DNA from: Centruroides vittatus
Lineage: Eukaryota
Reading direction: 5' to 3'
Length of the DNA: 64,000 nt
NCBI RefSeq assembly: GCF_030686945.1
Contig: NW_027122708.1
Coordinates: 5,930,248-5,994,247, forward strand
Shown here: in pieces, positions 403 through 42,812 of the stretch
Position numbering within the stretch: position 1 is the first letter of the stretch
How the letters are laid out: every line of letters begins with the position of its first letter
Program-made: the position numbers and the translations under genes
The notes under the pieces: model-generated
The model's input: the letters and a program-made list of their open reading frames with translations, nothing else
What the model was told of the DNA's origin: nothing
Databases searched by the model: none

Positions 403-2817
403 TGGAAAAAAGTATGATAACTTTTTTATTTTTCGACTCCGGTCCAAAAGTAGGGTATCGTTTAACTCGTCTCCGTCCCCTCAGTTCAGAAATATACTCA
501 AAGTCCCAAAATTCCATAGGTGGTAATCTATAGTATCCCCAATCATTTGTGTCCAGCTAAATTAAAGCGGTGTTATTAGCAGCCACCACAGCCAACATAA
601 TGCATTGCTGACTACCGTGCGAATCAAGTGGGAAAACGACAGATGACATAGGACAGACGAATAAAGTCGATCTATATTTACCCGACCTCAGCCAAAACAG
701 GCCTGAAAACGCAATAATTACTCGGCGTAGTTTCTCTATAAAGATGCAAATTAATTCATATTATAGTAATGTGTGTCCACTTTTCACTTTTACAATTAAA
801 TTTTGAATATTTATTGTACCGGTACAATTGAACTTTATTACACACTCACTAGAAAAAATAAAGATCATCAAACCTCCATACAAAACATTAATTATTTGAA
901 ATAAAATGAATAAATAAATAGTAGGCTGGATAATAATGATTACGAACTATATTTTATAAATACGTCAATAAAAATGAAGTTTTTCACGTAAAAAATATTT
1001 ACTACACCAATGGAAACTGGCGACGTATTCCACAAAAGAAATATCTTTATGGATATCTTTCCACCGATATTACCCCAAATCAAATGCACAGGGTAAATAC
1101 AATTGCACACGAGATACGTTCATAAAGTCGAAAGAATTAAAGGAGCTGTTCATAAATTACGTCCGCATTTTTCTTGAAATTTTACTCTCCCTTCCCCTCT
1201 TATGCCAGTTTGTCCGAGTTTCTGTAACCCTCCCTCTTCGGATGTCCGACAAAACTCGAACCCCCTTTAAACCTTTATCACTTTATAAATGACGATATTA
1301 TAAGTAGAAACAAAACGTAAAAAGAAATTCTGAAATAAATATAAAATGCATGAACTGTATAAAATTTAATGAAATAAACGGACGTCCACTGAAGATCGAT
1401 CCCTCTTCTCCCCTTGTCCGACTTTGTCTGACCTGTCCTAATCCCCAGTGTGGACGTCATGGACAGACCCAAAGGAATTACTGGCGAGTCGGCCATAAAG
1501 TACTAATTCTACTCGGCGCCCGCACAAAATGTTGATGACGTTTCAAACGAAATTCACGAAAGAAAAGAGGAAAGAGTTACTTTACATCGCAAAAAAAAAA
1601 AATTGTTTCTAAATTTATCCACGTGTATTAAAAAATGAAATGATAGAAATAAATGCCTACGGTAAGCAATGAAAGAAAAATATTTCGGATGAGAATGCAC
1701 CAGCCACATTTTAAGATGTTGATGCAATTTTACACTAACTTTCTTTAAAATAATATCCCCGAAGAGAACAGGCTGTTTCCTAGAAATAGTACAAGCCCAG
1801 GTAGTGTTGCCACCTTTACAAAATCGCTGACCCGGACGGTAGGTCAGGTTTGTTCAAACAGAAGTTCCTGATGCATGCGCAATGTCATTTTACAGTGCGA
1901 AGAATAACGTGCATGCCGGTTCTAAATCAGTTACAGTTAGGGACTAGGGACTTGCGTAGGAGTAACGTATGTAACCTAAATTAAGAAAGAAAGAACAGAT
2001 AATTTAGCTCCGCAGAAGACGTGTACGGACATACAAGCAAGAAATTATAAAAGAAAAAAAAAAGGTCGAGAGACAGGTTGCGAGTCACACGTCCGCGTAA
2101 ACAGAGTAACATGGCGGAATGGCAGATGAGTTTCAGTGAGTGTGAAGTCTTTCGCTGTTCAAATAGTGTAAATTTATAAAAAATATTTGCAAGAACTTTG
2201 TTTCATCGTAATTTCACAATTTCTACGAAATTCCCGGACAAAATTAATAGTTCACCCGGACAGTGAGTCAATTCCCGGACTGTCGTGTGAAAATCGTACG
2301 GGTGGTAACACTAAGCCCAGGACAACCCATGGGGAAGGAAGAGCAAGCTCTATCATTTCACCTCGTTCCAAAAAGAGGTTAATATCAAAACTTTCAATGG
2401 AAGCGAATCAGATATTAAGCTGATTAGAACAGACACTTTATTTGACAAAGTTTATAGGATTGTTACAAGGCGCCTGACTTTTGAATCAACCCGACAATTG
2501 GAAATCACTTTTCATCGATCATAGCCATAAAGAAGGAAGCAACGTCGATCACTTCCAAAATTTTCGGAACTCACTCCAACGAACTTATTATCACTGGTGT
2601 CGTCCGGTAATAATTTAAAAAAAGAAATTTATTGATTTTATGGAGTGTAATTTTCTATCACCAATGCATCATGATTATAAATTTCGTCAATTTATTTAAA
2701 AAAGTTATTTATGCCCTTATACATAATACTTGTTTTACTAAAAGTATAATGAAACGATGCCGTTTGATTTTCGATAACACTATGCGTCGCGTTTGTATAC
2801 AAGGTCTATAATACAAG

Positions 2818-3755: not shown

Positions 3756-4002
3756 GGTTAATGTTACCCTAGGTATCGAAGATAGCGGCTCGTCTCCGAT
3801 TCCATCAATCAGAAGATGGAAGAATGGGGACGCACGTTCTAACCTAACCTAACCTATTCTAATAAATTACCATAATTATTAGCAACAAAATTATTAGAAT
3901 AGGATAGGTTAGATTAGAACGTTCGTCCCCATTCTTCCCTGTCTTCTGATTGATGGAATCGGAGACGAGCCGCCATCTTCGATACCTAGGGTAACATTAA
4001 CC
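3756..4002. mobile_element. Palindromic MITE, family A copy 1. Termini ggttaatgttaccctagg / cctagggtaacattaacc. Arms of about 100 bp carry ggctcgtctc and ggggacgc motifs plus (CCTAA)3, which is (TTAGG)3 on the other strand.
   Basis: The inverted arms are reverse complements of each other. The central loop attctaataaattaccataattatt is shared with the copy at 10479-10712. Confidence 0.75.
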
Positions 4003-4570: not shown

Positions 4571-4909
4571 TTGATGGAAAATATGTCATCAGAGAGACTT
4601 GAAGCTTTCGTTAAAGATTATGTAAAGAGCAAGAAAACGTTGCAAAAAATAAAGAATGCACAAAAAATACTAGATAAAAACCACTACATTGCCAAGCAGA
4701 CAATAGAAAAAACTATGGAAGAGATTGAATCAAGTGCATTACATAATTTAGAAGTAATTTTTACAAGTAAACGAGAATTTCTGAAAAACTTGGAAAAGAA
4801 ATTTAAAAATTCTTCAAGTCCGAACGATGATACGAAAACATCTGAATCCGGAGATATTTCTCAAATAAATTTTGATATCGATAATCGTGAAATTGAAGGG
4901 CTGCCTTAG
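4571..4909 (+). CDS. Hypothetical 112-aa coiled-coil protein. The ORF starts 9 nt after a ttttcag acceptor, downstream of a GC-rich segment at 4310-4490 that may be a promoter or 5'UTR exon.
   Basis: ATG-initiated ORF with no transposable-element similarity, preceded by a polypyrimidine tract and AG. Composition is coiled-coil-like. No family was recognised. Confidence 0.3.
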   Translation: MMENMSSERLEAFVKDYVKSKKTLQKIKNAQKILDKNHYIAKQTIEKTMEEIESSALHNLEVIFTSKREFLKNLEKKFKNSSSPNDDTKTSESGDISQINFDIDNREIEGLP

Positions 4910-6073
4910 ACTTCAAAGCAGCAAAACCATTGGACGCTAAATATGATTTTGGTTAATTTAAATGCTTTTTACCTAAACCAGAAGATTTCACTTTGCTAAT
5001 TGTACAAAAAGAATTCGATATTGGAAAAGAATTTACTGTTTGTGCTAAAGGCGAAAAACATTAGTGTCCTCTGACATTTCGGCTTTTCGGATTAATGACA
5101 GACGAAAGTGGAATACGAAAGGTGGCTGAAATTGTTGATAAACAAGATGGTTCCTATATTTTCAACTTCCGCTTGGATAAATATTGCAAAATACTTCATA
5201 GAAATAACGCTCTTTGGTCGTCATATCAAAAATAGTCCTGTTGCTATAGGTATAAAAACAGACGAAAATAAGTTAACTAAAGACCGGCACTTATAGTATC
5301 TCGATGCTTTTGATCGCCGTTTAGATGTTTATCATCTCGAGACGGATAAATAAGTTTTAATTTTATAATTTCAGATATGCATCATTATATAGTTGAAACT
5401 TTTTAAAAAATATATTCTCTTGGTTAAAATGTTTAAATGAATAATTACAATTTTTGAATGTATTCCTTACTTAATCTTTGTATAAATTATTATTAATAAT
5501 GTTTAGTTTACGAAGTAGCATATAGTGATATTTCATGAAAGGTTTATTAGTGTTTATCATTTTATTAATAACATGTTACTTAGCAAATGTATCATAAAAA
5601 ATATCGTTTTAAAACTGTTAAATCGATATAAATTTTGTTCAGATTTGTTGATTAAAAGAAAATATTAATTCAACTTTATTCTCCACTTTTTCTATTTCAC
5701 TAATTTGAAGCTTTAATTCATTACATTTATAAACTTTAAATACAGTATTATAAGTTACGTCAGTCAATAATTTATAAATATAATTAGTACTATTAAACAT
5801 CTTTAACAATTTTTACATATTATAAACTAATTTATTTAAAAATTTCTAATTCTTGATTAAAAATTGTTATTTAAAAACTAAAAATATACAAATTTCAAAC
5901 ACGAAATCTGGCTAAATTCATATTTATTTTCTTTTTATAATGCAAAATTGTATTTTCATTTCGGTTTAGTTTGCTGTAATTTATTCGAAATAATATTTTG
6001 TTACCTTATTCTAGTTTTAGTTTATATGGCCGAATTATTTTTTGATGTTTTGTAAATTTCTTCTTATTAACTT

Positions 6074-6171
6074 GAATTGGAGCTCGGCCTGTCGAATTTC
6101 CTTTTATTTTGATTGGTCAAGTTCTTTCTGTTCTCTACTTTATGTTTTTTATTTTATTTTACTTTAAATAG
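6074..6171 (+). pseudogene. cytb: cytb C-terminal fragment (WIGARPVEFPFILIGQVLSVLYFMFFILFYFK-stop under the mitochondrial code), truncated upstream by an in-frame TAA at 6068
   Basis: The translation matches the conserved cytochrome b C-terminus WIGARPVE.P.I.IGQ. Upstream of 6068 there is no cytb-like sequence. Confidence 0.6.
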
Positions 6172-6234
6172 TTATTTAGCTAATATAAGCTTTTGTTTTG
6201 AAAGCAAAGAATAGGAAGTATCTTAATAACTTTT
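6170..6234 (+). tRNA. trnS2: Mitochondrial-type tRNA-Ser(UCN). It has a 7-bp acceptor stem agttatt/aataact and a TGA anticodon in ttttgaaag.
   Basis: Cloverleaf elements located by eye. The position between cytb and nad1 matches arthropod mitochondrial gene order. Confidence 0.5.
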
Positions 6235-7183
6235 CTTAAAAGAGTACTTAATAAAGAATAAGTGAATAATAAAAATAGTCTTTACAGACAAAACAATTAG
6301 CACATAATTTAAGGCTAGAGGAAGGTAGCTTTTTCAGGCTAGATTTATTAACTTATCATATCGAAAACGAGGATATCTCCCACGAACTCATAAGAAAAGA
6401 ATAGAAAATATTAATACTTTTAAGGAGATAAAAAGAGGACCAAAGAATAAAATTGCTGTTATTATTCTTATCAAGATAATATTTGCGTATTCAGCTATGA
6501 AAATAAGAGCAAAACCTACCCCTATATATTCAACGTTAAACCCAGAAACTAGTTCGGACTCTCCTTCTGTAAAATCAAAAGGAGTTCGGTTAGTTTCTGC
6601 TAAACAAGAAGAAAATCAAACTATTAATAGGGGGAGTATAAAAATTCCAATTGAACTTAATAATTGATAGTTATTAATTTCTTTTAAATTAAAAGAAGAA
6701 GTAATTATAAGAAGAGAAAATAAAATTAAAGCAAAGCTCACTTCATAAGAAATAGTTTGAGCTACTCCTCGATAAGCCCCTAAAATGGCGTATTTAGAAT
6801 TGGAGGACCATCCAGCCACTAAAATCGAGTAGACTCTTACTCTTGAACAAGATAAAAAAAAAATAAAACCCCCCATTTTATATCAATAAAATAATATAGA
6901 GAGGGGTATAACATCCATAAAATCAAAGCTATAGAAAGACCAAAAATAGGAGAAAACAAAAAAGGATAAAGATTATATGTTTCCAATCTTGATAGCTCCT
7001 TAATAAATAATTTAATAGCATCCGAAAAGGGCTGAAATAATCCTAAAATCCCTACTTTATTAGGGCCTTTACGAATTTGAATATAACCTAACATTTTACG
7101 TTCTAACAAAGTAATAAATGCAACTCTTACTAAAATTATAATTAAAATTAATAAATAAGATAAAAATCAAAAAAAAAATTATC
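6223..7183 (-). pseudogene. nad1: NADH dehydrogenase subunit 1 (nad1), mitochondria-derived, with a frameshift in a T10/A10 homopolymer at 6863-6872
   Basis: Six-frame ORFs 6837-7109 ([31 protein letters not shown]) and 6616-6876 ([32 protein letters not shown]) are ND1 segments in different frames. TGA is used as Trp. The stop TAA is at 6223. Confidence 0.8.
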
Positions 7184-7186
7184 AAA

Positions 7187-7256
7187 GAGAGATTCTATTT
7201 ATGGAGCTTAAATCCATCGCATATATTTTGCTACATTGAATAAAACCTTTTCTCTC
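7187..7256 (-). tRNA. trnL: Mitochondrial-type tRNA-Leu. The anticodon hairpin atgga-tttaagc-tccat reads TAA. Its 5' and 3' ends are uncertain.
   Basis: It lies between nad1 and rrnL as in arthropod mitochondrial genomes. The cloverleaf was only partly resolvable by eye. Confidence 0.35.
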
Positions 7257-8372
7257 ATTAGAACTTTTCTAAACGAAGGGTCCTTTCGTACTACTTCGTT
7301 TCAATTTTTCTCTAGATAGAAACCAACCTGGCTTACACCGGTTTGAACTCAGATCATGGAAACTTTTATAAGTCGAACAGACTTCCTATTATTGCTCTTG
7401 AGCAATAGAGGTAATTTAATCCAACATCGAGGTCACAAACATGTTTGTCAATTTGAGCTTTCAAAACATATTACGCTGTTATCCCTAAAGTAACTTATTT
7501 AAATTTCAAAAATTTTGGGTATTAAAATAATACTATCTTTAATTATCTAAAAGTGTTTTTCTTTCTGCCGCCCCAGCAAAACATATTCTTAATTTACTAA
7601 ATTTTCTTATGTAAAGTTTTATAGGGTGTTCTTGTCTAAAAGAGACATTTTAGCCTTCTTACTAAAAAGTGAAGTTTAAAATCAATAGTTAAGAAAGAAA
7701 TTTTCTAGTTTACCCTTTCATTCCAGTCTTAAATTACAAGACTAATTATTATGCTACCTTTGCACAGTCAAAATACCGCGGCCATTTATTTATACATCGA
7801 GCAGGGCTCATTTTTAATCATTTCAAAAAAATATGTTTTTGGTAAACAGACCAAAAATTTTAGACGAGTTACTTAACTTTTAATTGCTTTCTTAATTATA
7901 GATTAATTTTCTACTTATTTTAACATTATTACTATCATTAAATTATTCCATGGAAACTTTAATTAATTATTAGTTTATAAAACTAAAAATAACTTAATGA
8001 TAAAATTGAAGACAATCTTATTCCTCTAATAACAAATAATTATTTTTTAAACTTACATCTAATAAAGCTTGTCCTTTATTAGATAAAAATTTTCCAATCT
8101 TTGATGCTTATCTTAAAGAACCAGATATCAAATTAGGCGTTTAGCTTTTTACTTCAATAAATCAATTTACAATTACTTTAACACGTAAAAAATATTAATT
8201 TATAGCTCATAACTTTTCGGGAAAATTAAATCCTTTAATTAATTATTAAACCCTGATACAAAAGGTACGATATTCTCCTTTTTATATATTAAAAATACCC
8301 TTACAGTTAAGTTTTCTTCAATTTCAAACTATTACTAAAAAATGACTCCCTTCTTAATAATTTTCTAAAATA
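7257..8372 (-). rRNA. rrnL: Mitochondrial large-subunit (16S) rRNA, NUMT copy
   Basis: The 3'-domain motifs ccggtttgaactcagatcatg (7336-7356) and acgctgttatccctaaagtaa (7468-7488) are present as reverse complement. The 12S 3' end at 8441 fixes the upper bound. At about 1.1 kb it is shorter than a typical insect 16S. Confidence 0.75.
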
Positions 8373-8440
8373 AAATAAACAAGATTCCAAAAAGGATCTT
8401 TTTAATGTAAATAAAAAACTTAACTAAAGCTTAATCTTGC
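8373..8440 (-). tRNA. trnV: Mitochondrial-type tRNA-Val, approximate, with the anticodon in tttacat
   Basis: It lies between rrnL and rrnS. The reverse complement contains caagattaagctttagttaagtttt...tttacatt. Confidence 0.35.
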
Positions 8441-9245
8441 TTCCAGGAACATCTTCCGATATTCCTACTATGTTACGACTTTTCTCTTATTAAAAGAGAG
8501 TGACGGGCGATATGTACATATTTTAGAGCTAGTTCAATTTAACAAATTATTACAAAAATACTTTCAAATCCTCTTTCATTTACCTTTTAATAATAAAATC
8601 CATAAATATATTTTTATATTGTAACCCATCTATACTTAAACATAAGCTGAACCTTGATCTGATATTAAAAATAAAATTACATTTAATAATAACTATAAAG
8701 TATTATTACCACAACGATATACAAACCACCAATCTAAGTAAGATATGTCGTGTATTATCGATTATAAGACAGGTTCCTCTAATAAGATTAAAACACCGCC
8801 AAAATTTTTAAGTTTTAAGCCATCTAATACTACCTGAATTTTATATTTTTTTATAACAGGGTATCTAATCCTGGTTTCTCATAAAATTTTCAAAGACCCC
8901 TAAAAAAGAAGTTTTAAATATAAAAATTCTACCTTTAACTCTTCAATCCTTCTTAAAAATATTCTTCCCCCCAAAAACTTAGCCCTACTTGATTTTATAG
9001 TATAACCGCAGCCGCTGGCACTATTTTTGCTAAATCTAAAAGAATAACTAAAACTTTTTAATAAGAAATTAATATTAAAACCTAAAAATTTCTATTTAAA
9101 ATACTAATATAAATTTATTTTCTTAAAGAAGGACTTTTAGCCAAAATTAAACCAGGACTAATAAAATGTAGAGTATATTATCTTTACTTCTCTTCTTAAA
9201 TCTTCAATAAAAAAAACGCGCCACAATGAACTTGAAAACAAAATT
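8441..9245 (-). rRNA. rrnS: Mitochondrial small-subunit (12S) rRNA, NUMT copy
   Basis: The 3' end gtgacgggcgatatgtacat / aagtcgtaacatagtaggaatatcggaag is present as reverse complement at 8443-8510. The internal motifs gggtatctaatcc (8860) and accgcagccgctggcac (9005) are also present. Confidence 0.75.
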
Positions 9246-9542
9246 TTATAAACCAAATTCCATTTTAACTTTCTTCATCCATCCTCTGGATGATGTATAT
9301 ATACTCCAGATAGGCATTTCAGAACGGAAAACCGAATAGCCCCCCGGGGGGCCTTATTCATATAGTTTTTCTGCAATGTATTGTCATTTTAACAATATTG
9401 TAGTCTCGTGATACACATTAACCTCTATTCTCGTGGCGTGGATTATTTTAGAAATCTTTTATCTCCCTTACGGAATTTTTCTAGCCTATCTCCTTAATTA
9501 ATGAGAGCGTGCATGGCCTTAGGGAACTCGCACCATACTCTA

Positions 9543-10036
9543 ACAGTAATCCTGCAACAAAAGCATGTATTTGAAGTTACAGCATATGAAATGGATTCTA
9601 CCAAACCACCTCTACGTGTTCAGGTTAATTTCACCCATGTCATGTGATTAAACCGCGAGCGCTGCTTTTTTTTTTCCGGAGATAGTTACCTTTATTCTGC
9701 GACGTAATAAAAGTGGAGTTTCAAGAACAACCTCCAACATTAAATTTTGTCAGCGTTTAGGTAAAACACCTACGGAGACTTTAAAATTGCTAAGAAAGGT
9801 GTACGGTGATTCTACCATGGCGAAGTCGAAATGTTGGAGGTTGTTCTTGAAACTCCACTTTTATTACGTCGCAGAACAAAGGTAACTATCTCCGGGGGAA
9901 AAAAACAGCAGCGCTCGCGGTTTAATCACATGACATGGGTGAAATTAACCTGAACACGTAGAGGTGGTTTGGTAGAATCCATTTCATACGCTGTAACTTC
10001 AAATACATGCTTTTGTTGTCATGGATTACTGCAGTC
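9543..10036. mobile_element. Palindromic rearranged mariner derivative. Inverted arms of about 200 bp flank an 80-bp core that encodes a mariner transposase helix-turn-helix piece (RLGKTPTETLKLLRKVYGDSTMAKSKCW).
   Basis: The arms at 9543-9745 and 9825-10036 are reverse complements. The core translation matches the mariner N-terminal LGKNT...YGDS...KS region. Confidence 0.6.
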
Positions 10037-10478
10037 CCCGAACTTTTGGATCGTATCACGTATAAGTTTCTTGGTTGCATAAAGAATATCGGGCGACTCT
10101 CAAAAGTTTCCTGCACGTCGGTGATCTAAGTTTGATTTAAATTTAAAATTTATTATAATAATTGTCACAAAGAAAATACGAATGAGTAGTTTTAGTGTGA
10201 TGGAAGAATATATTCTTGTCTATTTTAAAGTCAAATGTTTCTTAAAATTTATCAAAAAAATACGAGAAAATTCAGTAGATGAATATACAATTCGTAAAAA
10301 TTATTGATAAACTTTATGTATTGTAAGAATATAACTCAGTTATATCGAGTATTTTCAGTAAAGGGTCGTCAGATTTTATAAAAATTGTATACGTAGATAA
10401 AAAAAATTAATACAGAATTCTTATAATTTTTATTTATTCATCTAAAATTATCAATTGAATTTCGTTGTTTCAATTTAA

Positions 10479-10712
10479 GGTTAATGTTACCTATGGTGTC
10501 AAAATGGTGGCTCGTCTGTGATTCAAGGAAACAGAAGGAAAAAAAAAACAGTGGGGACGCCCTAACCTATTCTAATAAATTACCATAATTATTACCAACC
10601 AAATTATTAGAATAGGTTAGGTTAGGTTAGAACGTGCGTCCCCACTGTTTTCTTTCTTGTTTCCTTGAATCAGAGACGAGCCGCCATTTTGACACCATAG
10701 TTAACATTAACC
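10479..10712. mobile_element. Palindromic MITE, family A copy 2, carrying (TTAGG)3
   Basis: The termini, loop and arm motifs match the copy at 3756-4002. ataggttaggttaggttagaacg is visible. Confidence 0.75.
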
Positions 10713-18495: not shown

Positions 18496-19951
18496 TATGA
18501 GGCGTGTCCGGGAAGTAAGTACCGTTTTGGAAAAACTCGCATAAAAAATCTTTTTTCAAAACAAAATTTATTTTTACATGAAAGAGCATGTCGGAAACTA
18601 TCTTTCTACACAGTTACCACCATTGTTCAGACATTTGTCATATCGGGAAACCAATTTGTCTATACCCTCTTCAAAGAAAGATGCCACCAGTGAAGACAGC
18701 CACTGCTGAACATTGGTTGTTGCGTCGTCATCGCTGGCAAAGCGCCTCCCTCCAAAATCACGCTTCAAGTTCAAGAACAAATGGTAGTCTGCAGGTGTGA
18801 GGTCGGGGCTGTATGGCGGGTGATCAAACTGCTCCCAACCGAATTGTTGAATCATGTTTTGGGTGACACCAGCAGTATGGGGACGTGCGTTGTCATGAAG
18901 CAACACAATGCCTTTACTGGGACTTCCACGCCTTTTGTTTTGAATTGCATGGCGAGGTTTTCGCAATGTTTCACAGTATCGTTCTGCATTGATGGTTTCA
19001 CCTCTGGGAAGGAACTCAACAAGCAGAATGCCCTGTCTGTCCCAGAATACAGTATGGGAAATGTATGGATTAGTAGAAAATGTAGATGGATGAAATGGAT
19101 TAGTGGGAAATGTAGGTTTAGTAGCCGGTAAGTCATAAGACAGGTACGACATAATTAGGACGATGGGGGACGGCTGTCCCAGAATACAGTGCACATGATT
19201 TTTCGTGCTGACAATGTTGTTTTGAATTTGTGTTTTGTGGGGAACCATGAGTGCCTCCACTCCATTGACTGTTGTTTTGATTCTGGAGTGACATGACAAA
19301 CCCAAGTTTCATCACCGGTAACAATTTTGTTTAGGAAATCATTACCCTCTTCACTGTATCGGATAAGAAATGCCAAAGCACTTCCAAGTCGCTTCGTTCT
19401 GTGGACATCCGTAAGCATTTTGGAGACTCAATGGGAACACAATTTACGATAATTTAAGTGATTTGTGACAATCTCATGCAAAACAGTTTTTGAAATTTGT
19501 GGAAACTCATCACAAAGCAATCTTATTGTGAACCGTCTGTTTTCACGAATTTTCTCATTCACTTTTGCAACCAAACCATCATTGACAACAGAAGGCCGCC
19601 CACTCCATGCTTCGTCATGAACATTGTCCATCATTGAATTGTCAAACCCACTTTCTCACCATTCCATCACTCATTACATTTTCACCATAAATCTCTACAA
19701 GTTGACGATGAATTTCAACTGGCTTAACATTCTTTGCATTCAAAAACCATATTACAGAACGCACTTCACAGTCGACGGGATCGGCAATCGTCTTAAATAT
19801 TTTGAACGCTCACTAACATGTGAAAAAACAACACAATCTTTCATGGCGTCACTGGACTGACAATCAACCAGAAACACATATGCGCAGGCGCTGAACTGCG
19901 ATACTACTGCTGCGGTGGCAGTAGAACAAAACGATACTTACTTTCTGGACA
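18496..19951 (-). mobile_element. Mariner-like element of about 1.46 kb with 26-bp terminal inverted repeats tatgaggc(g/a)tgtcc(g/a)g(g/a)aagtaagta
   Basis: The terminal inverted repeats at 18496-18521 and 19926-19951 are reverse complements. The internal transposase ORFs carry mariner signatures. Confidence 0.8.
18598..19634 (-). pseudogene. Mariner transposase, frameshifted across three ORFs. N-terminal helix-turn-helix SGRPSVVNDGLVAKVNEKIRENRRFTIRLL; DD34D catalytic-domain motifs HDNARPHTA and HPPYSPDLTPADYHLF.
   Basis: Six-frame ORFs 19428-19634, 19155-19418 and 18598-19305. Signature mariner motifs are present. Several frameshifts make it non-functional. Confidence 0.8.
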
Positions 19952-30439: not shown

Positions 30440-31100
30440 TCTTCTGAATGCATGTTTTAATGTATACAAACTTCTGGATGCCTTCCAAAAAACTGCTTTC
30501 AGTTGGACCCTAAGCCAGTCCAAAACACTTCCTGTATCTCTATTACCTGATAATTTTTGACCGTAGGTGGGTTCTTTAGGGGTCCAAACAAATGAAAGTC
30601 CAAAGGAGCCAAGTCAGGAATGTATGGTGGATGCTCCAATGTCTCAAATCCTAGGTGTTCTGTGGTGCTGTGCAATGGTATGAAAGCAGCATTGTTACGG
30701 ATTAACAGGATACCTTCTGACAGTGGTCATCTTGGTTTTGACCACCCAACTGATTTCAGTCTTGTTTCAAGCACATTACTATATCTAACACTGGTCACAT
30801 TTTCACTTTTTCTCTGAAAGTATCAAAAAATTGTCATCATCTTTCCAGTAGAGGGTTTATGAGTGTGTCTGATGAGGATGATGTTTCCAATGCATGGAAT
30901 GTTTTCTGCTTTCTAGTTTGTAACGAGATGATCTAAGGCAATGATTCCCAAAGTGGTCTATATCAACCCCTAGGGGTCAATTCCGAACTGCAAGGGGTCC
31001 ATGTCAGTGAATACAAAAATTGCGGGTGCATGAGATGTAAATGGGGGTCCACAAGAATGGCTCCCATTTAAGCAAGTCATGACCAAAATTTTGGCTTTCC
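30440..31100 (-). pseudogene. Degraded mariner/Tc1-like transposase remnant. The C-terminal signature LEHPPYIPDLAPLDFHLFGPLK is readable on the minus strand at about 30520-30640.
   Basis: Reverse-complement translation gives the HPPY.PDLAP.D.HLF motif typical of mariner transposases. The rest is heavily decayed. Confidence 0.5.
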
Positions 31101-32730: not shown

Positions 32731-33111
32731 TTATGCATAATGCTGTAGGTCAATATGTGTTAAACTCTTTGGCAATATAGTCAGTAGTGATTCTTTTACA
32801 CTCATGAATTCTCTGATCAATTCTTCTTTCACCATATCAGTCACTACAGTGGTTAGGCATCCAGAATGGTTGTTGAAGTTCAAATTCTCTCTCCCATTCT
32901 TGAATATTTGTACTAGTTGATATACATCTTCTTGACTAAAACAATTATCACCATACTGTGCTTTTATTTGGCAATAAATTTCAGCTGGCTTCATTCCCTC
33001 ACCATTCAAAAAATGAACAACACCACACTGCTTTTCAGTAGTGCAATTTAAAAGTGGTGTGACCATTTTGAAATTACACTGCCAGGTGCAGATGTTGCAG
33101 TGTTGCACCAT
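32731..33111 (-). pseudogene. Mariner-like transposase N-terminal helix-turn-helix fragment (EKQCGVVHFLNGEGMKPAEIYCQIKAQYGDNCFSQEDVYQLVQIFKNGRENLNFNNHSG...), truncated
   Basis: The six-frame ORF matches the N-terminal helix-turn-helix domain of mariner transposases (E.R.VI.F....G.....I...L...YG......STV.RW...F..GR......SGRP). It lies immediately next to the LINE 3' end. Confidence 0.6.
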
Positions 33112-33532: not shown

Positions 33533-36500
33533 TTAGTTTGTTTTGTTTTTATAAATGTCGATTATTTTACAAAAATAGTTATAAATTTTATATAAGTCTT
33601 TTTTACCCATTTTGTTGAAGTTTTTTAACAATTCTATTAGCGAATTGCATTTATAAGTTCGAGTTATGTCATAGTGTTCACGAATATCATTTAATTTTGG
33701 ACATTTTAATATTAAATGATAAGGTGTTGAATCATCGGAGTTACATAAGAAACATTTTGTTGATAAGCTTATGTAAGTGTTGTTAACATACAGCGAATTT
33801 TTATTTAAACGAAGTTGTGCTATAAAGCGTTTTACATTCAAGTTTACCGAATACAACATATATGATTGAACTGATGGTATTTTAAATATATCTAAGTACC
33901 ACGGATGATATTTACTGCTATGTAATGAGAACTGATCTTTGTTTATGGATTGTGCCATAGCTGAGTTTAAAAGTAGTGAGTAGCCTGTTTTCCAATCTTG
34001 AATGTTATCTTGAAATAGTAGTTCTGATACTCCAAAAGAGTTGAAGATAGTTTTTAATTTGTTATGCCATAGCTGTTTATTTTTTTGAAGTTTACTTTGC
34101 TTGATGTTTTCATGATATAGAGCAATCAAATTGTTGTCACTATTGAATTTGAGTCTGTAATAAAATTTAATGATTCGTTTTAATATGAACGGGAAAGACC
34201 ATATACGATTGGTTTCATGACGTAGTGCATATCCGGGTATTGTCCGTTCTAACTGAAATAATCTGCGTAGATAGTAAATATGGAATCGTTCTAATTTGTA
34301 GAGATAATCCAAGCTCCAAATGGGACTGGCGTAGAATATCATTGGATTAATAATCGAATTGTAAAGTTTCATGTGTATTCTTAAGTCAGAAGTTTTCAAT
34401 CTGCTGCATAAAAACAAAAGATTATCGATTGCTTGATTGACTTTATTGTTAAGTTTAGAAATGTGCGATTTAAATGTTAAGTTCCAGTCAAAATTAATTC
34501 CTAGGTAATTTATCTCATTGACAGTTTGTAGCAGGATATTTTCATGATAAATTTTTGTTTCGTTAACAGATATTTTACTGTTGTTCCGAAAAATAATTAT
34601 TTTAGTTTTACTTGGATTAACTGCTAAATATTTAGACTTAAAATGCGAATTTAATTGATTGATTTTCCTTTGGAGAGAAATTTTTGTCGGTGCTACCACA
34701 ACCAAGTCATCAGCAAAGAGAATATAATGAAATGCTTTATTGCCTATGAGTATACCATCGTTTACTTCAGAAAAAAGATGATCTATATCTTTCAAATAAA
34801 AGTTAAATAAATGTGGAGATAATGGATCTCCTTGAAGAATACCACGTGAATGCGTTAATGGTGGAAGAATGTTTTTACCGTGCTTGATCTTTATTTTATA
34901 ATTTTGAAATAATATTGATATTGTTCCTGTAAATTGAGAACTAGCACCACTCTCCTTAAGTTTTTGTTGTAAAAAAGGTACATATACTGAATCGAATGCC
35001 TTTTTAATATCTATAAAAGCAGCATACACTTTTCTATGTTTTTTTACGAGATATATTTGAATAATCATTAGCAAAGTAAATATCGCAAATTCGGTGCCTT
35101 TATTTTTTGTATAAGCAAACTGAAATTCTGCTTCTAACTCGTTGATTTTGATCCAATTTTGAAATTTTTTTGCAAGTATCGATGTAAAACATTTTCTAAG
35201 TGTAGATAACAAAGCTATAGGTCTATAGTTTTCTGGAGCCATCTGGTCTCCCTTTTTATAGATCATCGTCATGATTATGGAATTCCAAGATTCAGGATAG
35301 GACAATGTGCTGTACATAGCATTGAATATTTTCAATAATTTTATTTTAGATTCCGTTGGTAGCATTTTTAAGAATTTGGTTGGTATGTTATCATCCCCTG
35401 GGGTAGTATTGTTTTTTGTTTTTTGAATTACTTCGTCGAGTTCATTCATAGTCAAGTCAGCGTTTAAATAATCATCATAATAATTAATATTTCTTTCCAT
35501 TGGAACTTTTAAATTTTTTATAATGAAGCTTTGATAAAATTTCTTCCAAGTTTCGAATCTTATACAAATGTTAATATCTCCTAGATTAGCTTTTGGTCGA
35601 AATTTTCGGATAGTATTCCAAAATATTTTGCTATTATTACTATTATTTATTAAATTTGATTCAATTCTACAAAAGTAGTTTTTCTTTTTCGTCTTAATTA
35701 AGTTATTGTAGATTCGTTTGGAGTTTTTGTAATTAATCAAATTTTCTTTATTAGGATTTTGCCTGTAAATTTTTAAATCTTGTTGCTTTCGCCGTTTTTC
35801 TTTGTAACAATCTGAATCATACCAGATTTTTTTATTTTTATTTTGCGCGTATTTGTTATCCTTGTTTGATATTATATAATCATTCATGATATTCATCATT
35901 ATTTTGTATACCTCTTCACAGTTATTATTAGTTACTTCTAGCATATTTTTAAACCGATTTCCAATTTCGGACTCATAACTAGCCAATTTGTACTTTATCT
36001 TGAAGTTGTTGTTATATATATAATCCGAATTCTCAAAAGGAAATAAACGGAATTTTGCTATTGTAGGAAAATGATCTGAAATATCAAAATTCGTAGTCTG
36101 AAATTCTACACAACAATCTAAGAATAATTCAGAGCATATTGTGAAATCTATGGTCGAAGCACCCGTATTGGTCAAGCAAGTATGTTCAGCTGGAATATCC
36201 TGTTGAATTCTGCCGTTAAGAAGAAACAATCTGTGTTCTGTTAGCAACTCGATAAAGTTTTTACCCAATCTGTTGGTTTGTTTATCTTTCGAAAGACGTT
36301 TATTAGATATATTGAAATTGGCACCTTTATATTTTGAATCTATTAACTCACCAATCCTTGCATTAAAATCTCCCACTACCAAAATGAGCGGAGAAATATG
36401 ACTCCAACTTTCTAATGTTTTAAACATATTTTTTAAAGTACTTAGATCATCAGGCAGAATATAAGCAATTAATAATGTTATTAAATTATTCGTTTTATTT

Positions 36501-36814
36501 ACCAAAGTAGGCTTCTGTAATGAGATAAGAAGTAGCATATAATTGTTGAATTTTTTTATGTCAATTATTTTACCAAGGTTCTTTTTTATAAGGATACATA
36601 TACCTCCACTTGGACGGCCTGGACCTGTAGGTTTTTGTGCTTGAATCGATTCCACTATAAAGTTATTAAAAAATTTTGTTTTATAATACAAATTCGAAGT
36701 AATCCAAGTTTCAGTAATTGCTAAAATATCCGGATCGTATTTAACACAAAAATTATTTATTAGTGACGTTTTATTTTTTATTCCTTGGCCATTCCAGTTA
36801 GCAATGGAAACCAT
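33533..36814 (-). CDS. LINE ORF2 polyprotein of 1093 aa. N-terminal apurinic/apyrimidinic endonuclease (DILAITETW), reverse transcriptase (FADDLVVVA box) and C-terminal Cys motif CFLCNSDDSTPYHLILKC.
   Basis: Uninterrupted ORF starting with ATG. The domain order and motifs are those of LINE ORF2. Confidence 0.85.
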   Translation of the reverse strand: MVSIANWNGQGIKNKTSLINNFCVKYDPDILAITETWITSNLYYKTKFFNNFIVESIQAQKPTGPGRPSGGICILIKKNLGKIIDIKKFNNYMLLLISLQKPTLVNKTNNLITLLIAYILPDDLSTLKNMFKTLESWSHISPLILVVGDFNARIGELIDSKYKGANFNISNKRLSKDKQTNRLGKNFIELLTEHRLFLLNGRIQQDIPAEHTCLTNTGASTIDFTICSELFLDCCVEFQTTNFDISDHFPTIAKFRLFPFENSDYIYNNNFKIKYKLASYESEIGNRFKNMLEVTNNNCEEVYKIMMNIMNDYIISNKDNKYAQNKNKKIWYDSDCYKEKRRKQQDLKIYRQNPNKENLINYKNSKRIYNNLIKTKKKNYFCRIESNLINNSNNSKIFWNTIRKFRPKANLGDINICIRFETWKKFYQSFIIKNLKVPMERNINYYDDYLNADLTMNELDEVIQKTKNNTTPGDDNIPTKFLKMLPTESKIKLLKIFNAMYSTLSYPESWNSIIMTMIYKKGDQMAPENYRPIALLSTLRKCFTSILAKKFQNWIKINELEAEFQFAYTKNKGTEFAIFTLLMIIQIYLVKKHRKVYAAFIDIKKAFDSVYVPFLQQKLKESGASSQFTGTISILFQNYKIKIKHGKNILPPLTHSRGILQGDPLSPHLFNFYLKDIDHLFSEVNDGILIGNKAFHYILFADDLVVVAPTKISLQRKINQLNSHFKSKYLAVNPSKTKIIIFRNNSKISVNETKIYHENILLQTVNEINYLGINFDWNLTFKSHISKLNNKVNQAIDNLLFLCSRLKTSDLRIHMKLYNSIINPMIFYASPIWSLDYLYKLERFHIYYLRRLFQLERTIPGYALRHETNRIWSFPFILKRIIKFYYRLKFNSDNNLIALYHENIKQSKLQKNKQLWHNKLKTIFNSFGVSELLFQDNIQDWKTGYSLLLNSAMAQSINKDQFSLHSSKYHPWYLDIFKIPSVQSYMLYSVNLNVKRFIAQLRLNKNSLYVNNTYISLSTKCFLCNSDDSTPYHLILKCPKLNDIREHYDITRTYKCNSLIELLKNFNKMGKKDLYKIYNYFCKIIDIYKNKTN

Positions 36815-36868
36815 TTGATTATTCTTTATGACTTTGTTATGTTGCGTATATTTTTGCTTAACATGATA

Positions 36869-37843
36869 TCAACTGTCTGTATTTATTTGATTACTATAAG
36901 GACGAAAATTATTTACATAAACCAATTTGCTCAATTTTAGGCTATATGTTATTTTTTCTTGGTTAATCGTTAATATATCATTACGGAGTTTAACTTGGTC
37001 TTTTTGTTTTCGTAATTCATGAAGTATTGGGAGTAAATTTTTCTTTCTTATCCTTGAGTTTTTAGTCAAATCTGGGGATATTTGCATATCTTCCCATTCT
37101 TCTAATGCGTTTTTTTGTTGTTTCTTTTGAATAAAGGTATAGAAAAATTTATCACGAAGTTGCTTATTGCTGAATGTTATTCTTACTGTTGTATTAGGTT
37201 TCTTAGTTATTAAGTTTGTTTCTGTTATCTCAGTTTGGGCTATATCGTGAATGTTTAGTACATTAGTCATAAAGTTATATACTTCTAACGTAGATATGGA
37301 TTTCGAGCTTGGATATTTGTATACAATTATTTTTTTATAATTATAATCATTAATTAAAGAGTCTATTTTAAATTGCGTTAGTTCATTTTCACTTTTTTGA
37401 TTTTCTAGTTGTTGTTTTATATTTTTAATTTCTTCCTCCATATATATCTGTCTTTCCTTAGTCTCACGTATATCTTGACGTATTCGTTCTACGTCTTCTT
37501 TTATATAGACCATTTGTTCTAACAGTTTATCATTTGAAGCATTTATTAAATCTGATATTTTAGTCCATAGAAGTGCAGTTGTAGTGTCAAGTTGACTTGC
37601 TGGATTAGTAAGAAGGCTTGAATTAATATTAGGTGACTCACCTGTTGAGCCTAATGAATTCTGCTGACCAGGTTCCATATTTTGATTCGAGAATTCTTTT
37701 GTTCCTTCTTGTGAATCACTTTTCGGTTGTGTTCCGTAATCCGTAATGAGTTTGGAGCTTGAAGTGCTTGGTTGAGCTTGTTTGTTCTCTGTCCTCGTTC
37801 TGGTCAGTGGAGGTCTTCCACGCTTGACTGGAGATCTTTGCAT
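36869..37843 (-). CDS. LINE ORF1 protein of about 324 aa from the first ATG. Basic N-terminus, long coiled-coil (IKEDVERIRQDIRETKERQIYMEEEIKNIKQQLENQKSE) and a C-terminal putative RNA-binding region. There are no CCHC zinc knuckles, so it is of the L1-like type.
   Basis: The six-frame ORF 36869-37885 uses a non-ATG start. The first ATG is at 37841-37843. Confidence 0.7.
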   Translation of the reverse strand: MQRSPVKRGRPPLTRTRTENKQAQPSTSSSKLITDYGTQPKSDSQEGTKEFSNQNMEPGQQNSLGSTGESPNINSSLLTNPASQLDTTTALLWTKISDLINASNDKLLEQMVYIKEDVERIRQDIRETKERQIYMEEEIKNIKQQLENQKSENELTQFKIDSLINDYNYKKIIVYKYPSSKSISTLEVYNFMTNVLNIHDIAQTEITETNLITKKPNTTVRITFSNKQLRDKFFYTFIQKKQQKNALEEWEDMQISPDLTKNSRIRKKNLLPILHELRKQKDQVKLRNDILTINQEKITYSLKLSKLVYVNNFRPYSNQINTDS

Positions 37844-38524
37844 ATTATTATTTTTTTGTATTATTGCTTTTTCCTTTACCTTCACTTAGTTAGTGTTAGT
37901 TTAAACTTGTTTAATAATAAGTTAATCAAATAAACAGTAATTCACCACTTCGCTGCACAAATGAAAGGTTCACAGAAAAAGTCACTCGCAGCGCCCGACA
38001 AACTATATTTTTATATATAGATATATGGATAAAATATATTTTCTTTCTCAAAAAAATATTTTATTTAAATGTTAAATTACATATTGTGTTGATTTAACTT
38101 TTTCACTTTCTTTATAAATATATAGTAAAGGAATTTTATATTTAAAGTAACTTTTAAAAAAAAGACACAAATATAAGAAATGCTAAAAATTTAATCATGT
38201 TTTTTGGAATAAATATAATTTATTTAACTAATGCTATTGTTGAATTTATGAAAGAAAGTAAATGAGAACTGTTAAGCTGATGACTCCACAGTTTATTTTA
38301 ACAGATATTTTATTTTTAAATCTATCCATTGAGATTTAAGAGATAAGTTATTTAAGATTTGTATAAATATCATATAGATATTAATACCCTTTGTTAAAAT
38401 TAATTTATTCCATTTACATTCTTTATCCCTTCTGCAATTATTTTAGTTTTGATATCTCAAAAAATTATACATTTAACATATTTATGTAGTAATTTCTCTA
38501 AAATATTAAAATAATAATAAATGA

Positions 38525-42262: not shown

Positions 42263-42812
42263 TTATCTTTTCTTCTTATTTACTTCTATACTTAACTTTA
42301 ATAACAAGCAGTACATGTTTACATCTTTAATTTCCACCGTACAACCTTGAACAGCATGATTATTGTTATCTTCACAATGATATTGAATAATTCCACCAAG
42401 ATAATCCTGCCAAGTTGTGGAATCAACACTAGCGACCAAAGGGCCATGAAATGCCATTAATTTTAGCATTTCTTCTTCTGATCCTTTTAAATCTTCACAG
42501 GTATAATTAAATTTTAATTCTATTCCTTTTTTTGGTCTTATGGCTTTACAGTTTGTCTCTTTGTCAGTTAAAGGATATTGTTTTTCAGTTAAAATTTTCA
42601 CTTTATTCTCATACATCCAGTCTAAGACCTCAAAAGTATCTCCACCATCATAACCACAGTTTGTTCCAGTTGCACAATCTATTACTTGCTGCACATTCAA
42701 TTCTACAAGTTCACCTGTCTTTAAAGCATTCATACTTTCTAATGTTTCTACAGTACTAAACGTCCAACATGCACCACATTCCTTCTGACTTTTCACTGGA
42801 GTAACAATTCCA
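42263..42812 (-). pseudogene. Papain-family (C1A, cathepsin-L-like) cysteine-protease fragment. It covers the mature-domain N-terminal roughly 170 aa (PGIVTPVKSQKECGACWTFS...DCATGTNCGYDGG...NHAV) with no propeptide and no intron, and is frameshifted at its 3' end.
   Basis: The conserved Q19 and C25 region QKECGACWTFS, the GCxGG-like block and the His region are recognisable. The copia RT fragment abuts it in-frame upstream. Confidence 0.6.

What the first reader, a model, noticed from the sequence alone, without database searches (positions are those of the whole stretch)
9543..10036. Foldback built from a mariner helix-turn-helix-coding core
Arms of about 200 bp mirror each other around an 80-bp core that still encodes a recognisable mariner transposase piece (…LGKTPTETLKLLRKVYGDS…). 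This looks like a product of abortive gap repair or template switching that turned a transposase gene fragment into a hairpin MITE. It is a plausible siRNA-generating anti-mariner hairpin.
Basis: partly seen in the sequence, partly recalled or inferred. Interest (0 to 1): 0.5.

Follow-up and report, generated by a model that had tools for sequence, protein, structure and literature searches.

The report
Broken mariner hairpin beside mitochondrial insert
This is a real 0.5-kb hairpin-shaped remnant of a scorpion-type mariner transposon, made when the element's own front end was copied backwards onto itself; it has only one transposon end, sits against a captured piece of mitochondrial DNA, and looks like an ordinary scar of messy DNA-break repair rather than a mobile or defensive element.

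Summary
Arms 9544-9741 and 9830-10031 (~198 nt, four substitutions plus a few indels) flank an 88-nt core (9742-9829) that encodes a mariner HTH_48 motif.

The arms are the mariner's own 5' end: the untranslated leader plus the first ~10 codons, with a decayed start codon (GTG) at 9713. Left arm plus core is colinear at 87% with 1.3-kb mariner copies in Centruroides sculpturatus. The right arm continues into a complete 30-nt terminal inverted repeat (10033-10062) followed by TA.

The left arm starts one base inside where its terminal repeat should end, and none is present. The piece therefore has one transposon end, no paired target duplication and no second copy in the data I could reach. It does not qualify as a MITE as it stands. 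The two other mariners in the window are not its parents.

The left end lies ≤320 nt from, and probably directly against, a ≥3.2-kb nuclear mitochondrial insert (cytb'-trnS-nad1-trnL-rrnL-trnV-rrnS).

The best reading is a one-off product of template switching during break repair, comparable to the Ozma-to-Goblin case in Aedes, possibly with mtDNA captured in the same event. siRNA production is untested. Interest is low to moderate.

The parts
9544..9741 (+). Left arm. It corresponds to mariner element positions ~32-233: the 5' untranslated leader plus the first ~10 codons. The decayed start codon (ATG->GTG) is at 9713-9715, followed by a 1-nt frameshift deletion. There is no terminal inverted repeat to its left.
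   Evidence: Colinear with L002 4631-4914 at 87%. Four-way alignment with L001 and L002. VEFQEQ matches the MEFQEQ of P0002. TIR absent.
9742..9829 (+). Unique core and hairpin loop. It covers codons ~10-39 of the transposase (NIKFCQRLGKTPTETLKLLRKVYGDSTMAKSK), which is helix-turn-helix 1, and is contiguous with the left arm.
   Evidence: Pfam HTH_48 E = 3.6e-5. 86% identical to P0002. P0002 aligns with Mos1 residues 14-157.
9830..10031 (-). Right arm. It is an inverted copy of element positions 32-233. The novel junction at 9829/9830 has 1-2 nt (A/AA) of microhomology, and the parental ...TCGAAGGTGTATGAATGG continuation is lost there.
   Evidence: Aligns to the reverse complement of L002 4605-4826 at 88%.
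10032..10064 (-). One bridging base (10032), the complete 30-nt 5'-type terminal inverted repeat (reverse complement of 10033-10062 = TACGTGATACGATCCAAAAGTTCGGGGACT), and a flanking TA (10063-10064). This is the only mariner end in the structure.
   Evidence: Alignment of element termini from the window, L001 and L002. It is the only TIR match in the window, with 0 expected by chance. It also matches the L002 and L001 3' TIRs at 91-96%.
5980..9224 (-). Nuclear mitochondrial insert (NUMT) to the left of the foldback. Components: cytb C-terminus (+, ~5980-6168), trnS-UCN (+, 6170-6232), nad1 (6226-7178, one frameshift), trnL-UUR (7180-7240), rrnL (~7241-8378), trnV (8379-8439) and rrnS (~8440-9224).
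   Evidence: Rfam LSU rRNA 130.7 and 68 bits. Mitochondrial-code ORFs. Pfam NADHdh 7.8e-64 and Cytochrom_B_C 2.3e-6. ARAGORN -mt tRNAs. Three universal 12S motifs in order.
9225..9543 (.). A 319-nt stretch between the 5' end of rrnS and the truncated left arm. It is probably mitochondrial control-region DNA, in which case the NUMT directly abuts the foldback, but this is unproven.
   Evidence: In Mesobuthus martensii 12S is 784 bp and the control region follows it directly (PMC7748737). GC skew is -0.16, the same sign as the rRNA segments, whereas the right flank is +0.18. No reference control region was available to align.

Best explanation
SHOWN. The feature is a 519-nt rearranged remnant (9544-10062) of one copy of a 1.3-kb mariner family that is present in the scorpion Centruroides sculpturatus. 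Reading the plus strand, it consists of element positions ~32-320 (leader, decayed start codon, HTH-1 codons), joined at 9829/9830 to the reverse complement of positions 233-1 of the same copy. The right arm ends in a complete 30-nt terminal inverted repeat plus TA. The rest of the transposase gene and the 3' end are gone. The left arm lacks its terminal repeat and lies next to a mitochondrial DNA insert. The two arms are far more alike (~2% substitutions) than the copy is to other family members (13%). They also share copy-specific defects (lost ATG, frameshift), so one arm was copied from the other, or both from the same copy.

INFERRED. The inverted copy arose in one repair or replication event. 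A 3' end priming at the right-hand terminal repeat copied inward. It then switched onto the complementary or displaced strand about 87 nt ahead, using 1-2 nt of microhomology, and copied back out. Synthesis aborted just before the terminal repeat, and the loose end was sealed by end joining. That step may also have captured the ~3.5-kb mitochondrial fragment as filler.

CONSEQUENCE. With one transposon end, the piece cannot be excised by mariner transposase. It is a dead repair scar. If it is transcribed it would fold into a ~198-bp double-stranded RNA, but nothing here shows that it is.
For: Anatomy:
- Inverted repeat and hairpin.
- HTH_48 in the core.
- Nearest relative P0002 is 86% identical and comes from C. 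sculpturatus.
- Colinearity of 9544-9830 with L002 4631-4914, and of 9830-10056 with the reverse complement of L002 4605-4826.
- Terminal repeat definition and the 5'-type continuation GCAGTAATCC in the right arm.
- Full mariner nature of the family, with Mos1 matches at 7e-22 and 4.4e-8 and Pfam Transposase_1 reported for P0073.

Single origin of the arms:
- Eight shared derived substitutions, including ATG->GTG, against 2+2 private ones. A shared 1-nt deletion is visible in the same alignment.
- L001 and L002 are 86.8% identical to each other.

Junction: 1-2 nt of microhomology.

One end only: a single TIR match in 64 kb, and the left flank resembles the TIR no better than 57% of random windows.

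NUMT. No mitochondrial ORF was found to the right of the mariner out to 16000; ARAGORN called two isolated tRNA-like sequences there, which I take as false positives.

Precedents:
- Goblin, a MITE whose two halves both derive from one subterminal region of the Tc1/mariner element Ozma in inverted orientation. It is attributed to template switching during synthesis-dependent strand annealing followed by end joining (PMC3814204).
- NUMTs as fillers of double-strand breaks repaired by end joining (PMC2567098, title and abstract as listed).
- Foldback-primed inverted duplications at breaks in yeast (PMC11724301 and PMC7467729, abstracts as listed).
Against: - The mechanism is reconstructed from a single end product. 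A foldback of a resected 3' tail, or a replication-fork template switch unrelated to transposition, would give the same junction.
- With only two outgroup copies, the 'shared derived' changes could mark a subfamily rather than decay of this particular copy.
- Gene conversion between arms could make the duplication look younger than it is.
- Whether 9225-9543 is mitochondrial, and hence whether the NUMT touches the arm, is unproven.
- Even if it does touch, the mtDNA could have entered later, destroying a once-complete left terminal repeat.
- I could not search the source genome for further copies, and the source species itself is not identified.
Confidence: 0.62

Rival explanations
1. It is, or was, a member of a mobile hairpin MITE family derived from this mariner. 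In this reading it was originally flanked by identical terminal repeats at both ends and could be mobilised in trans. The left repeat of this particular copy was destroyed later, for example by the break that admitted the mitochondrial DNA.
For: - A foldback made from one element end automatically creates perfect terminal repeats.
- Such families exist, and PMC3814204 lists several (Goblin, PALTA, Hairpin).
- The right end has a complete TIR plus TA.
- A genuine two-copy palindromic element lies 400 bp away, so foldback elements are present in this genome.
- The missing repeat is exactly where a transposase-made break would occur.
Against: - No second copy in the window, in 21 kb of C. sculpturatus DNA or among the metagenome hits.
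- No left TIR remnant anywhere in the window.
- It needs two events where one suffices.
- The source genome could not be searched, so the absence of copies is weak evidence.
Confidence: 0.2
2. It is an endogenous hairpin-RNA locus. It would be transcribed, perhaps from the mariner's own leader or promoter in the right arm, and diced into siRNAs that silence this mariner family.
For: - A ~198-bp, 98% paired stem with an 88-nt loop.
- Scorpions have duplicated Ago2-family genes, and chelicerates carry RdRP genes. Small-RNA libraries exist for C. sculpturatus (bioRxiv 10.1101/185694).
- hpRNA loci that silence selfish genes are documented in Drosophila (PMC10317233 and PMC10292708, abstracts as listed).
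- 36 of 178 stem 21-mers match L002 perfectly.
Against: - There is no evidence of transcription.
- There is no conservation data.
- It shares zero perfect 21-mers with the other family copy, L001.
- The family copies seen are old and already dead (13% diverged, broken ORFs), so there is little left to silence.
- The Rfam matches are sub-threshold, structure-only hits to plant long-hairpin models (124 bits against a 245-bit cut-off).
Confidence: 0.1
3. Two independent insertions of the same mariner family landed head to head, and each was later truncated by deletions.
For: The window is packed with transposable elements, including two other mariner families.
Against: - The arms are ~98% identical and share eight derived substitutions plus an indel. 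Unrelated copies of the family differ by 13%.
- The inner ends of the arms are internal positions (233 and 320), not element ends, so at least two further precise deletions would be required.
Confidence: 0.05
4. It is an assembly or library artefact, such as a foldback-chimeric read or a chimeric join to mitochondrial reads.
For: - Several arm differences and the nad1 frameshift lie in or near homopolymer runs, which are typical long-read errors.
- Mitochondrial reads are abundant in libraries.
Against: - The arms differ by four substitutions.
- The inverted repeat is short, has an 88-nt unique loop and has different flanks on each side, unlike read-through palindromes.
- The mitochondrial block has nuclear, TE-rich DNA on both sides, so two independent chimeric joins would be needed.
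Confidence: 0.03

Closest known systems
Goblin, a Stowaway-like MITE derived from the Tc1/mariner element Ozma in Aedes aegypti (PMC3814204)
   Same: In both, the two sides of the junction derive from one subterminal region of the parent in inverted orientation. The microhomologous sites are inverted. The proposed origin is template switching during synthesis-dependent strand annealing, followed by end joining.
   Different: Goblin kept both terminal repeats and amplified into a family. The piece here has one terminal repeat, retains 88 nt of transposase coding sequence as its loop, and is known from a single locus.
Internally deleted mariner and other class II derivatives produced by abortive gap repair (Ds from Ac, deleted P and Tc1 elements), as reviewed in PMC3814204
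   Same: It derives from an autonomous-type copy, has lost most of the transposase gene, and has short microhomology at the breakpoint.
   Different: Simple abortive gap repair gives a direct internal deletion with both ends kept. Here there is an inverted duplication of one end, and the other end is lost.
Foldback-primed inverted duplications at double-strand breaks in yeast (PMC11724301, PMC7467729)
   Same: An inverted duplication separated by a short spacer, with micro-scale homology at the turn-around point.
   Different: By its abstract, the templated insertions in PMC11724301 are mostly 5-34 bp. From general knowledge, foldback inversions of the PMC7467729 kind lead to large chromosomal rearrangements; that paper was not read for this point. 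Here there is a 200-bp local duplication, fixed in a germline genome.
NUMT insertion as filler in end-joining repair of chromosomal breaks (PMC2567098, PMC2820518)
   Same: A contiguous multi-gene mtDNA block in mitochondrial gene order, inserted in nuclear DNA next to a broken sequence.
   Different: Those studies did not tie the break to a transposon end. Here the insert lies where a mariner terminal repeat is missing. The link is circumstantial.
Drosophila hpRNA loci that generate endo-siRNAs (PMC10317233, PMC10292708)
   Same: A long, near-perfect inverted repeat with a loop, derived from the selfish gene it could target.
   Different: No transcription, small-RNA or conservation evidence is available here.

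Membership tests
mariner (Tc1/mariner superfamily) - derivation from | N-terminal paired helix-turn-helix DNA-binding domain (Pfam HTH_48) | tested here: met
   Core peptide E = 3.6e-5, 24.2 bits against a cut-off of 24.1. 86% identical to P0002, which scores 32.3 bits and aligns with Mos1 residues 14-157.
mariner (Tc1/mariner superfamily) - derivation from | Family copies encode a mariner DDE/D catalytic domain and are ~1.3 kb long | tested here: met
   The L002 copy is ~1.3 kb. Its conceptual translation aligns with Mos1 residues 153-345 at E = 7e-22. Pfam Transposase_1 is reported for P0073. This domain is absent from the window's remnant itself.
mariner (Tc1/mariner superfamily) - derivation from | ~30-bp terminal inverted repeats at both ends, flanked by a TA target duplication | tested here: not met
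   One 30-nt repeat plus TA on the right (10033-10064). None on the left. The sequence is therefore mariner-derived but is not an intact mariner element.
MITE (miniature inverted-repeat transposable element) | Terminal inverted repeats recognisable by a transposase at both ends | tested here: not met
   The long arms are inverted repeats, but the transposase-binding terminal repeat is present only at 10033-10062.
MITE (miniature inverted-repeat transposable element) | Target-site duplication flanking both ends | tested here: not met
   The right flank has TA next to the repeat. The left boundary reads ...CTCTAA|CAGTAATCC with no element end.
MITE (miniature inverted-repeat transposable element) | Multiple dispersed copies sharing the same internal junction | not testable with these tools
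   Only one copy in the window, none in L001 or L002 and none in a metagenome scan. The source genome could not be searched.
MITE (miniature inverted-repeat transposable element) | Small size (<~800 bp) and no coding capacity | tested here: met
   519 nt. The start codon is lost and the frame is shifted, and only 30 transposase codons lie in the loop.
hpRNA / endo-siRNA locus | Long inverted repeat able to form an extended RNA duplex | tested here: met
   -362.8 kcal/mol, z = -38.8.
hpRNA / endo-siRNA locus | Transcription and ~21-nt small RNAs from both arms | not testable with these tools
   No expression data are available here. Libraries exist for C. sculpturatus.
NUMT (nuclear mitochondrial DNA segment), neighbouring feature | Contiguous mitochondrial genes in mitochondrial order, embedded in nuclear sequence and carrying disabling changes | tested here: met
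   cytb'-trnS-nad1-trnL-rrnL-trnV-rrnS. There is one frameshift in nad1. Nuclear transposable elements lie on both sides.

The most novel reading that the evidence does not exclude
A single repair event at a transposase-made break did two things at once. It produced the foldback, through a template switch during gap filling from the right-hand mariner end. It also sealed the aborted product to the other side of the gap by capturing ~3.5 kb of mitochondrial DNA. That would make this locus a natural fossil that directly links mariner excision to NUMT integration and to the birth of hairpin-shaped transposon derivatives. Three observations are consistent with this. The copy-back stops one base short of the terminal repeat. 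The nad1 reading frame is almost intact. The arms have diverged by about 1% each.
Probability: 0.25. Interest if true: 0.5.

Novelty: new member of a known kind. Interest (0 to 1): 0.3.

Why it matters
It matters modestly. The locus preserves both the parental sequence and the junction of a one-end-duplicated mariner derivative, so it illustrates clearly how hairpin-type transposon derivatives can arise by template switching. It also shows that such products can be dead on arrival when the copy-back stops short of the terminal repeat.

The adjacency to a young mitochondrial insert would be a rare natural case tying a transposon-end break to NUMT capture, if it comes from the same event. Neither mechanism is new, and no function is indicated.

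For annotation, three practical points follow:
- The arms should be labelled as mariner leader sequence, not as a separate repeat.
- The window probably comes from a scorpion or close relative.
- The region 5980-9543 should be masked as mitochondrial in origin.

Tried and rejected
1. Parents inside the window. The mariner at 18598-19779 (minus) and the fragments at 32731-33111 and 30577-30958 show no DNA similarity to the foldback, and their HTH peptides differ (VIWFLNAKNVKPVEIHRQL..., VVHFLNGEGMKPAEIYCQI...). Rejected as parents.

2. A word-indexed protein search with the 56-aa peptide found nothing, because the query was too short. The exhaustive HMMER search was needed. Its top hit, P0001, is an unrelated 960-aa tandem-repeat protein and was ignored.

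3. A degenerate left terminal repeat. MAFFT suggested TTAGGGAACT against TTCGGGGACT in the left flank. A Smith-Waterman test shows that 57% of random 60-nt windows score as well. Rejected.

4. A metagenome scan with a family-conserved 19-mer returned 17 loci, all seed-only chance matches.

5. Identifying the source species by exact-product look-ups of three window ORFs, and by a homology search with the intact LINE ORF. There were no exact records, and the best relatives were only 27-28% identical.

6. Rfam. The only hits were sub-threshold, structure-driven matches of the hairpin to plant MIR2646, MIR2630 and MIR8007. This is not membership.

7. Mitochondrial DNA continuing to the right of the mariner. 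No mitochondrial-code ORF was found out to 16000, only two isolated ARAGORN calls that I take as false positives, and the GC skew has the opposite sign. This disfavours 'mariner inserted into an older NUMT' but does not exclude it, because control-region DNA cannot be recognised without a reference.

8. Standard ARAGORN found no tRNAs. Mitochondrial mode was required.

Full report
**1. The observation**

The sequence at 9543-10036 does contain a long inverted repeat.
- The repeat finder reports arms 9555-9677/9896-10018 (98% complementary) and 9666-9741/9830-9905 (95%).
- A self-BLAST joins them into one inverted match, 9544-10031.
- A global arm-to-arm alignment has 194 identical columns of 203, with four substitutions and five gap columns, several of them in a T/C homopolymer.
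- The non-palindromic core is 9742-9829, which is 88 nt.
- As a single strand the region folds into one hairpin of -362.8 kcal/mol. Shuffled sequences average -119 ± 6, giving z = -38.8.

- It meets Pfam HTH_48, the Mos1-type helix-turn-helix, at E = 3.6e-5. The score of 24.2 bits is only just above the curated cut-off of 24.1.
- An exhaustive HMMER search of 1.84 billion representatives gives 72 hits at E <= 1e-3.
- The best specific hit, P0002, is 86% identical over the motif.
- The top-ranked hit, P0001, is an unrelated tandem-repeat protein.

**2. What the arms are**

P0002 is annotated in Centruroides sculpturatus (bark scorpion) as 'FLJ37770-like'. It starts MEFQEQHCNIKFCQHLGKT...AKSKVYEWH.

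The window's left arm reads GTG GAG TTT CAA GAA CAA (VEFQEQ) at 9713-9730. A 1-nt deletion follows, and then the core peptide. The arm therefore contains the transposase start codon, now decayed to GTG.

I fetched the scorpion loci of P0002 and of a second fragment, P0073.
- Window 9544-9830 is colinear with L002 4631-4914 at 87%.
- Window 9830-10056 matches the reverse complement of L002 4605-4826 at 88%.
- Window 10033-10065 also matches the far end of the L002 and L001 copies.
- L002 carries a ~1.3-kb copy with a decayed ORF that still shows HDNVPAH...YSPDLAP. Its conceptual catalytic half aligns end to end with Mos1 transposase at E = 7e-22, and P0002 aligns with Mos1 residues 14-157 at E = 4.4e-8.

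Aligning all termini defines a 30-nt terminal inverted repeat, TACGT(G/A)...GATCCAAAAGTTCGGGGACT. After it the 5' end continues GCAGTAATCC and the 3' end continues TGGCATAAAATTCC.

The window's right arm runs straight through GCAGTAATCC into a complete repeat (10033-10062) followed by TA. It is therefore a full 5' terminus in inverted orientation. The left arm begins at CAGTAATCC, which is element position 32, one base inside where the repeat ends.

**3. Only one transposon end**
- The conserved 20-mer of the repeat occurs once in the 64-kb window even when three mismatches are allowed. Zero matches are expected by chance.
- A weak resemblance in the left flank (TTAGGGAACT) is at chance level. 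57% of random 60-nt windows score as well.
- No other part of the 1.3-kb element is present in the window.

In element coordinates the plus strand reads: left flank, then E32-~320, then the reverse complement of E233-1, then TA, then right flank.

At the novel junction (9829/9830) the parental ...TCGAAGGTGTATGAATGG is replaced by the reverse complement of 9722-9741. Only 1-2 nt (A/AA) of shared sequence lie at the switch.

**4. Relationship of the arms**
- Two scorpion copies differ from each other by 13.2%, and from the window copy by about 12-13%.
- The arms differ from each other by about 2% in substitutions.
- In the 144 columns where all four sequences align, both arms share eight derived substitutions against the L001 = L002 state. 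These include ATG->GTG.
- The arms also share a 1-nt deletion, seen by eye in that alignment. Each arm has two private changes.

The arms therefore descend from one copy. Two independent insertions are very unlikely.

If the shared changes are decay of this copy rather than subfamily markers, the duplication happened late, when the copy was already non-coding. Two outgroups are too few to decide this.

**5.

The mariner at 18598-19779 (minus) and the fragments at 32731-33111 and 30577-30958 give no DNA match to the foldback. They have clearly different HTH peptides. They belong to other mariner lineages.

**6. The left neighbour is mitochondrial DNA**

Rfam found LSU rRNA at 7310-7642 and 7699-7859 on the minus strand (130.7 and 68 bits). 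Under the invertebrate mitochondrial code the following features appear:

| Feature | Coordinates | Strand | Evidence |
|---|---|---|---|
| cytb C-terminus | ~5980-6168 | + | Pfam Cytochrom_B_C, 2.3e-6 |
| trnS(UCN) | 6170-6232 | + | ARAGORN -mt |
| nad1, full length, one frameshift | 6226-7178 | - | Pfam NADHdh, 7.8e-64 and 3.9e-25 |
| trnL(UUR) | 7180-7240 | - | ARAGORN -mt |
| rrnL | ~7241-8378 | - | Rfam LSU rRNA |
| trnV | 8379-8439 | - | ARAGORN -mt |
| rrnS | ~8440-9224 | - | three universal 12S motifs in order at 9021-9003, 8877-8858 and 8515-8496 |

This is a NUMT of at least 3.2 kb in mitochondrial gene order.

From my own knowledge, trnL(UUR) between nad1 and rrnL is the chelicerate or ancestral arthropod arrangement rather than the insect one. 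The same position is tabulated for a ricinuleid in PMC2231378.

In the buthid Mesobuthus martensii, 12S is 784 bp and the control region follows it directly (PMC7748737). The 5' end of rrnS would then fall near 9224 here. The remaining 319 nt up to the foldback would probably be control region.
- That stretch has GC 36.7% and GC skew -0.16, the same sign as the rRNA segments.
- The right flank of the mariner has GC 23.7% and skew +0.18.
- The right flank contains no mitochondrial ORF out to 16000, only two isolated ARAGORN calls that I take as false positives.

I could not obtain a reference control region, so direct contact between mtDNA and the truncated arm is probable but not shown.

**7. 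Mechanism (inference)**

The single terminal repeat, the microhomology at the switch and the abrupt end joined to foreign DNA fit one repair event. The proposed steps are:
1. Synthesis primed from the right flank copies the 5' end of a template copy inward.
2. It switches to the complementary or displaced strand about 87 nt ahead and copies back outward.
3. It aborts at E32.
4. The end is sealed by end joining, possibly with mtDNA as filler.

Published work supports each component.
- Template switching during synthesis-dependent strand annealing, followed by end joining, was proposed for Goblin. Both halves of that MITE come from one subterminal region of the Tc1/mariner element Ozma in inverted orientation. 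The same authors suggest this route for hairpin-like MITEs in general (PMC3814204).
- Foldback-primed inverted duplications at breaks are documented in yeast (PMC11724301 and PMC7467729, abstracts).
- NUMTs are known fillers of end-joined breaks (PMC2567098, abstract).

Two alternatives give the same junction. One is self-priming by a resected 3' tail followed by a later, separate loss of the left repeat. The other is a replication-fork switch. Each needs an extra event to explain the missing repeat.

Rough ages are compatible with one event but do not prove it. nad1 has no in-frame stop and one frameshift in ~950 nt, and the arms have diverged by about 1% each.

**8. Function**

With one terminal repeat the piece cannot be excised by a mariner transposase. 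From established knowledge of mariner transposition, excision needs two paired ends. Calling it a MITE is therefore not justified on present evidence.

The siRNA idea rests only on the ability to form a ~198-bp duplex.
- The stem shares 36 of 178 perfect 21-mers with L002 and none with L001.
- The family copies seen are old and defective.
- Rfam gives only sub-threshold, structure-driven hits to plant long-hairpin miRNA models.
- Scorpions do have expanded Ago2-family genes, chelicerates carry RdRP genes, and small-RNA libraries exist for C. sculpturatus (bioRxiv 10.1101/185694). The idea is therefore testable, but it is not supported here.

**9. Limits**
- The source species is not identified. 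Exact-product look-ups failed, and the intact LINE has no close relative on record.
- The mariner relatives and the mitochondrial gene order point to a scorpion or other chelicerate.
- Copy number in the source genome could not be measured. The metagenome scan gave only chance hits.

**10. Verdict**

The interpretation needs correcting in three ways:
- It is a mariner 5' end folded back on itself.
- It has one end only.
- It is most likely an immobile scar of template-switch repair next to, and perhaps sealed by, a mitochondrial DNA insert.

It is a new example of a known kind of product, and interest is low to moderate.

Noticed in passing
window 5980-9224 (possibly to 9543): A nuclear mitochondrial insert in chelicerate gene order: cytb C-terminus, trnS(UCN), nad1 (one frameshift, no in-frame stops), trnL(UUR), rrnL, trnV and rrnS. 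It looks young, and it lies against the truncated end of the mariner foldback.
   Followed up: yes
window 10479-10712 and 3756-4002: Two copies (~76% identical) of an almost fully palindromic 235-250-bp element, with outer arms 55-61 nt at 95-98% and nested inner arms. It carries AACCT repeats; their complement, TTAGG, is to my knowledge the common arthropod telomere unit. This is a candidate genuine foldback or MITE family, 400 bp to the right of the mariner remnant.
   Followed up: partly
window 2284-2461 (-): A full-length U2 spliceosomal snRNA match (63 bits against a gathering score of 46; model positions 1-192).
   Followed up: no
window 18598-19779 (-), 32731-33111 (-), 30577-30958 (-): Remnants of other, unrelated mariner lineages. 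The first is a near full-length decayed copy with a 235-aa C-terminal ORF, and the second is an HTH-bearing 126-aa ORF. None is related at the DNA level to the foldback.
   Followed up: partly
window 33533-37885 (-): An apparently intact LINE-type retrotransposon, with a 338-aa ORF1 and a 1093-aa ORF2. The Pfam domains recorded for its distant relatives are a reverse transcriptase plus PF14529. The best relatives in a 5.8-billion-protein collection are only 27-28% identical, so this may be a young, lineage-specific family.
   Followed up: partly
window 42263-45409 (-): A run of ORFs that look like an LTR-retrotransposon gag and integrase, judged by eye from the translations. The run includes a 177-aa ORF (42263-42796) with a papain-type cysteine protease motif (CGACWTFS...), an unusual neighbour that could be a captured or interrupted host gene fragment.
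   Followed up: no
L001 4881-6104 and L002 ~4601-5925 (Centruroides sculpturatus GCA_000671375.2): NCBI gene models P0002 and P0073 ('FLJ37770-like' and 'uncharacterized protein') are fragments of decayed copies of this mariner family. The copy carrying P0002 lies within the span of a protein-kinase gene model. They are probably transposon remnants annotated as genes.
   Followed up: partly
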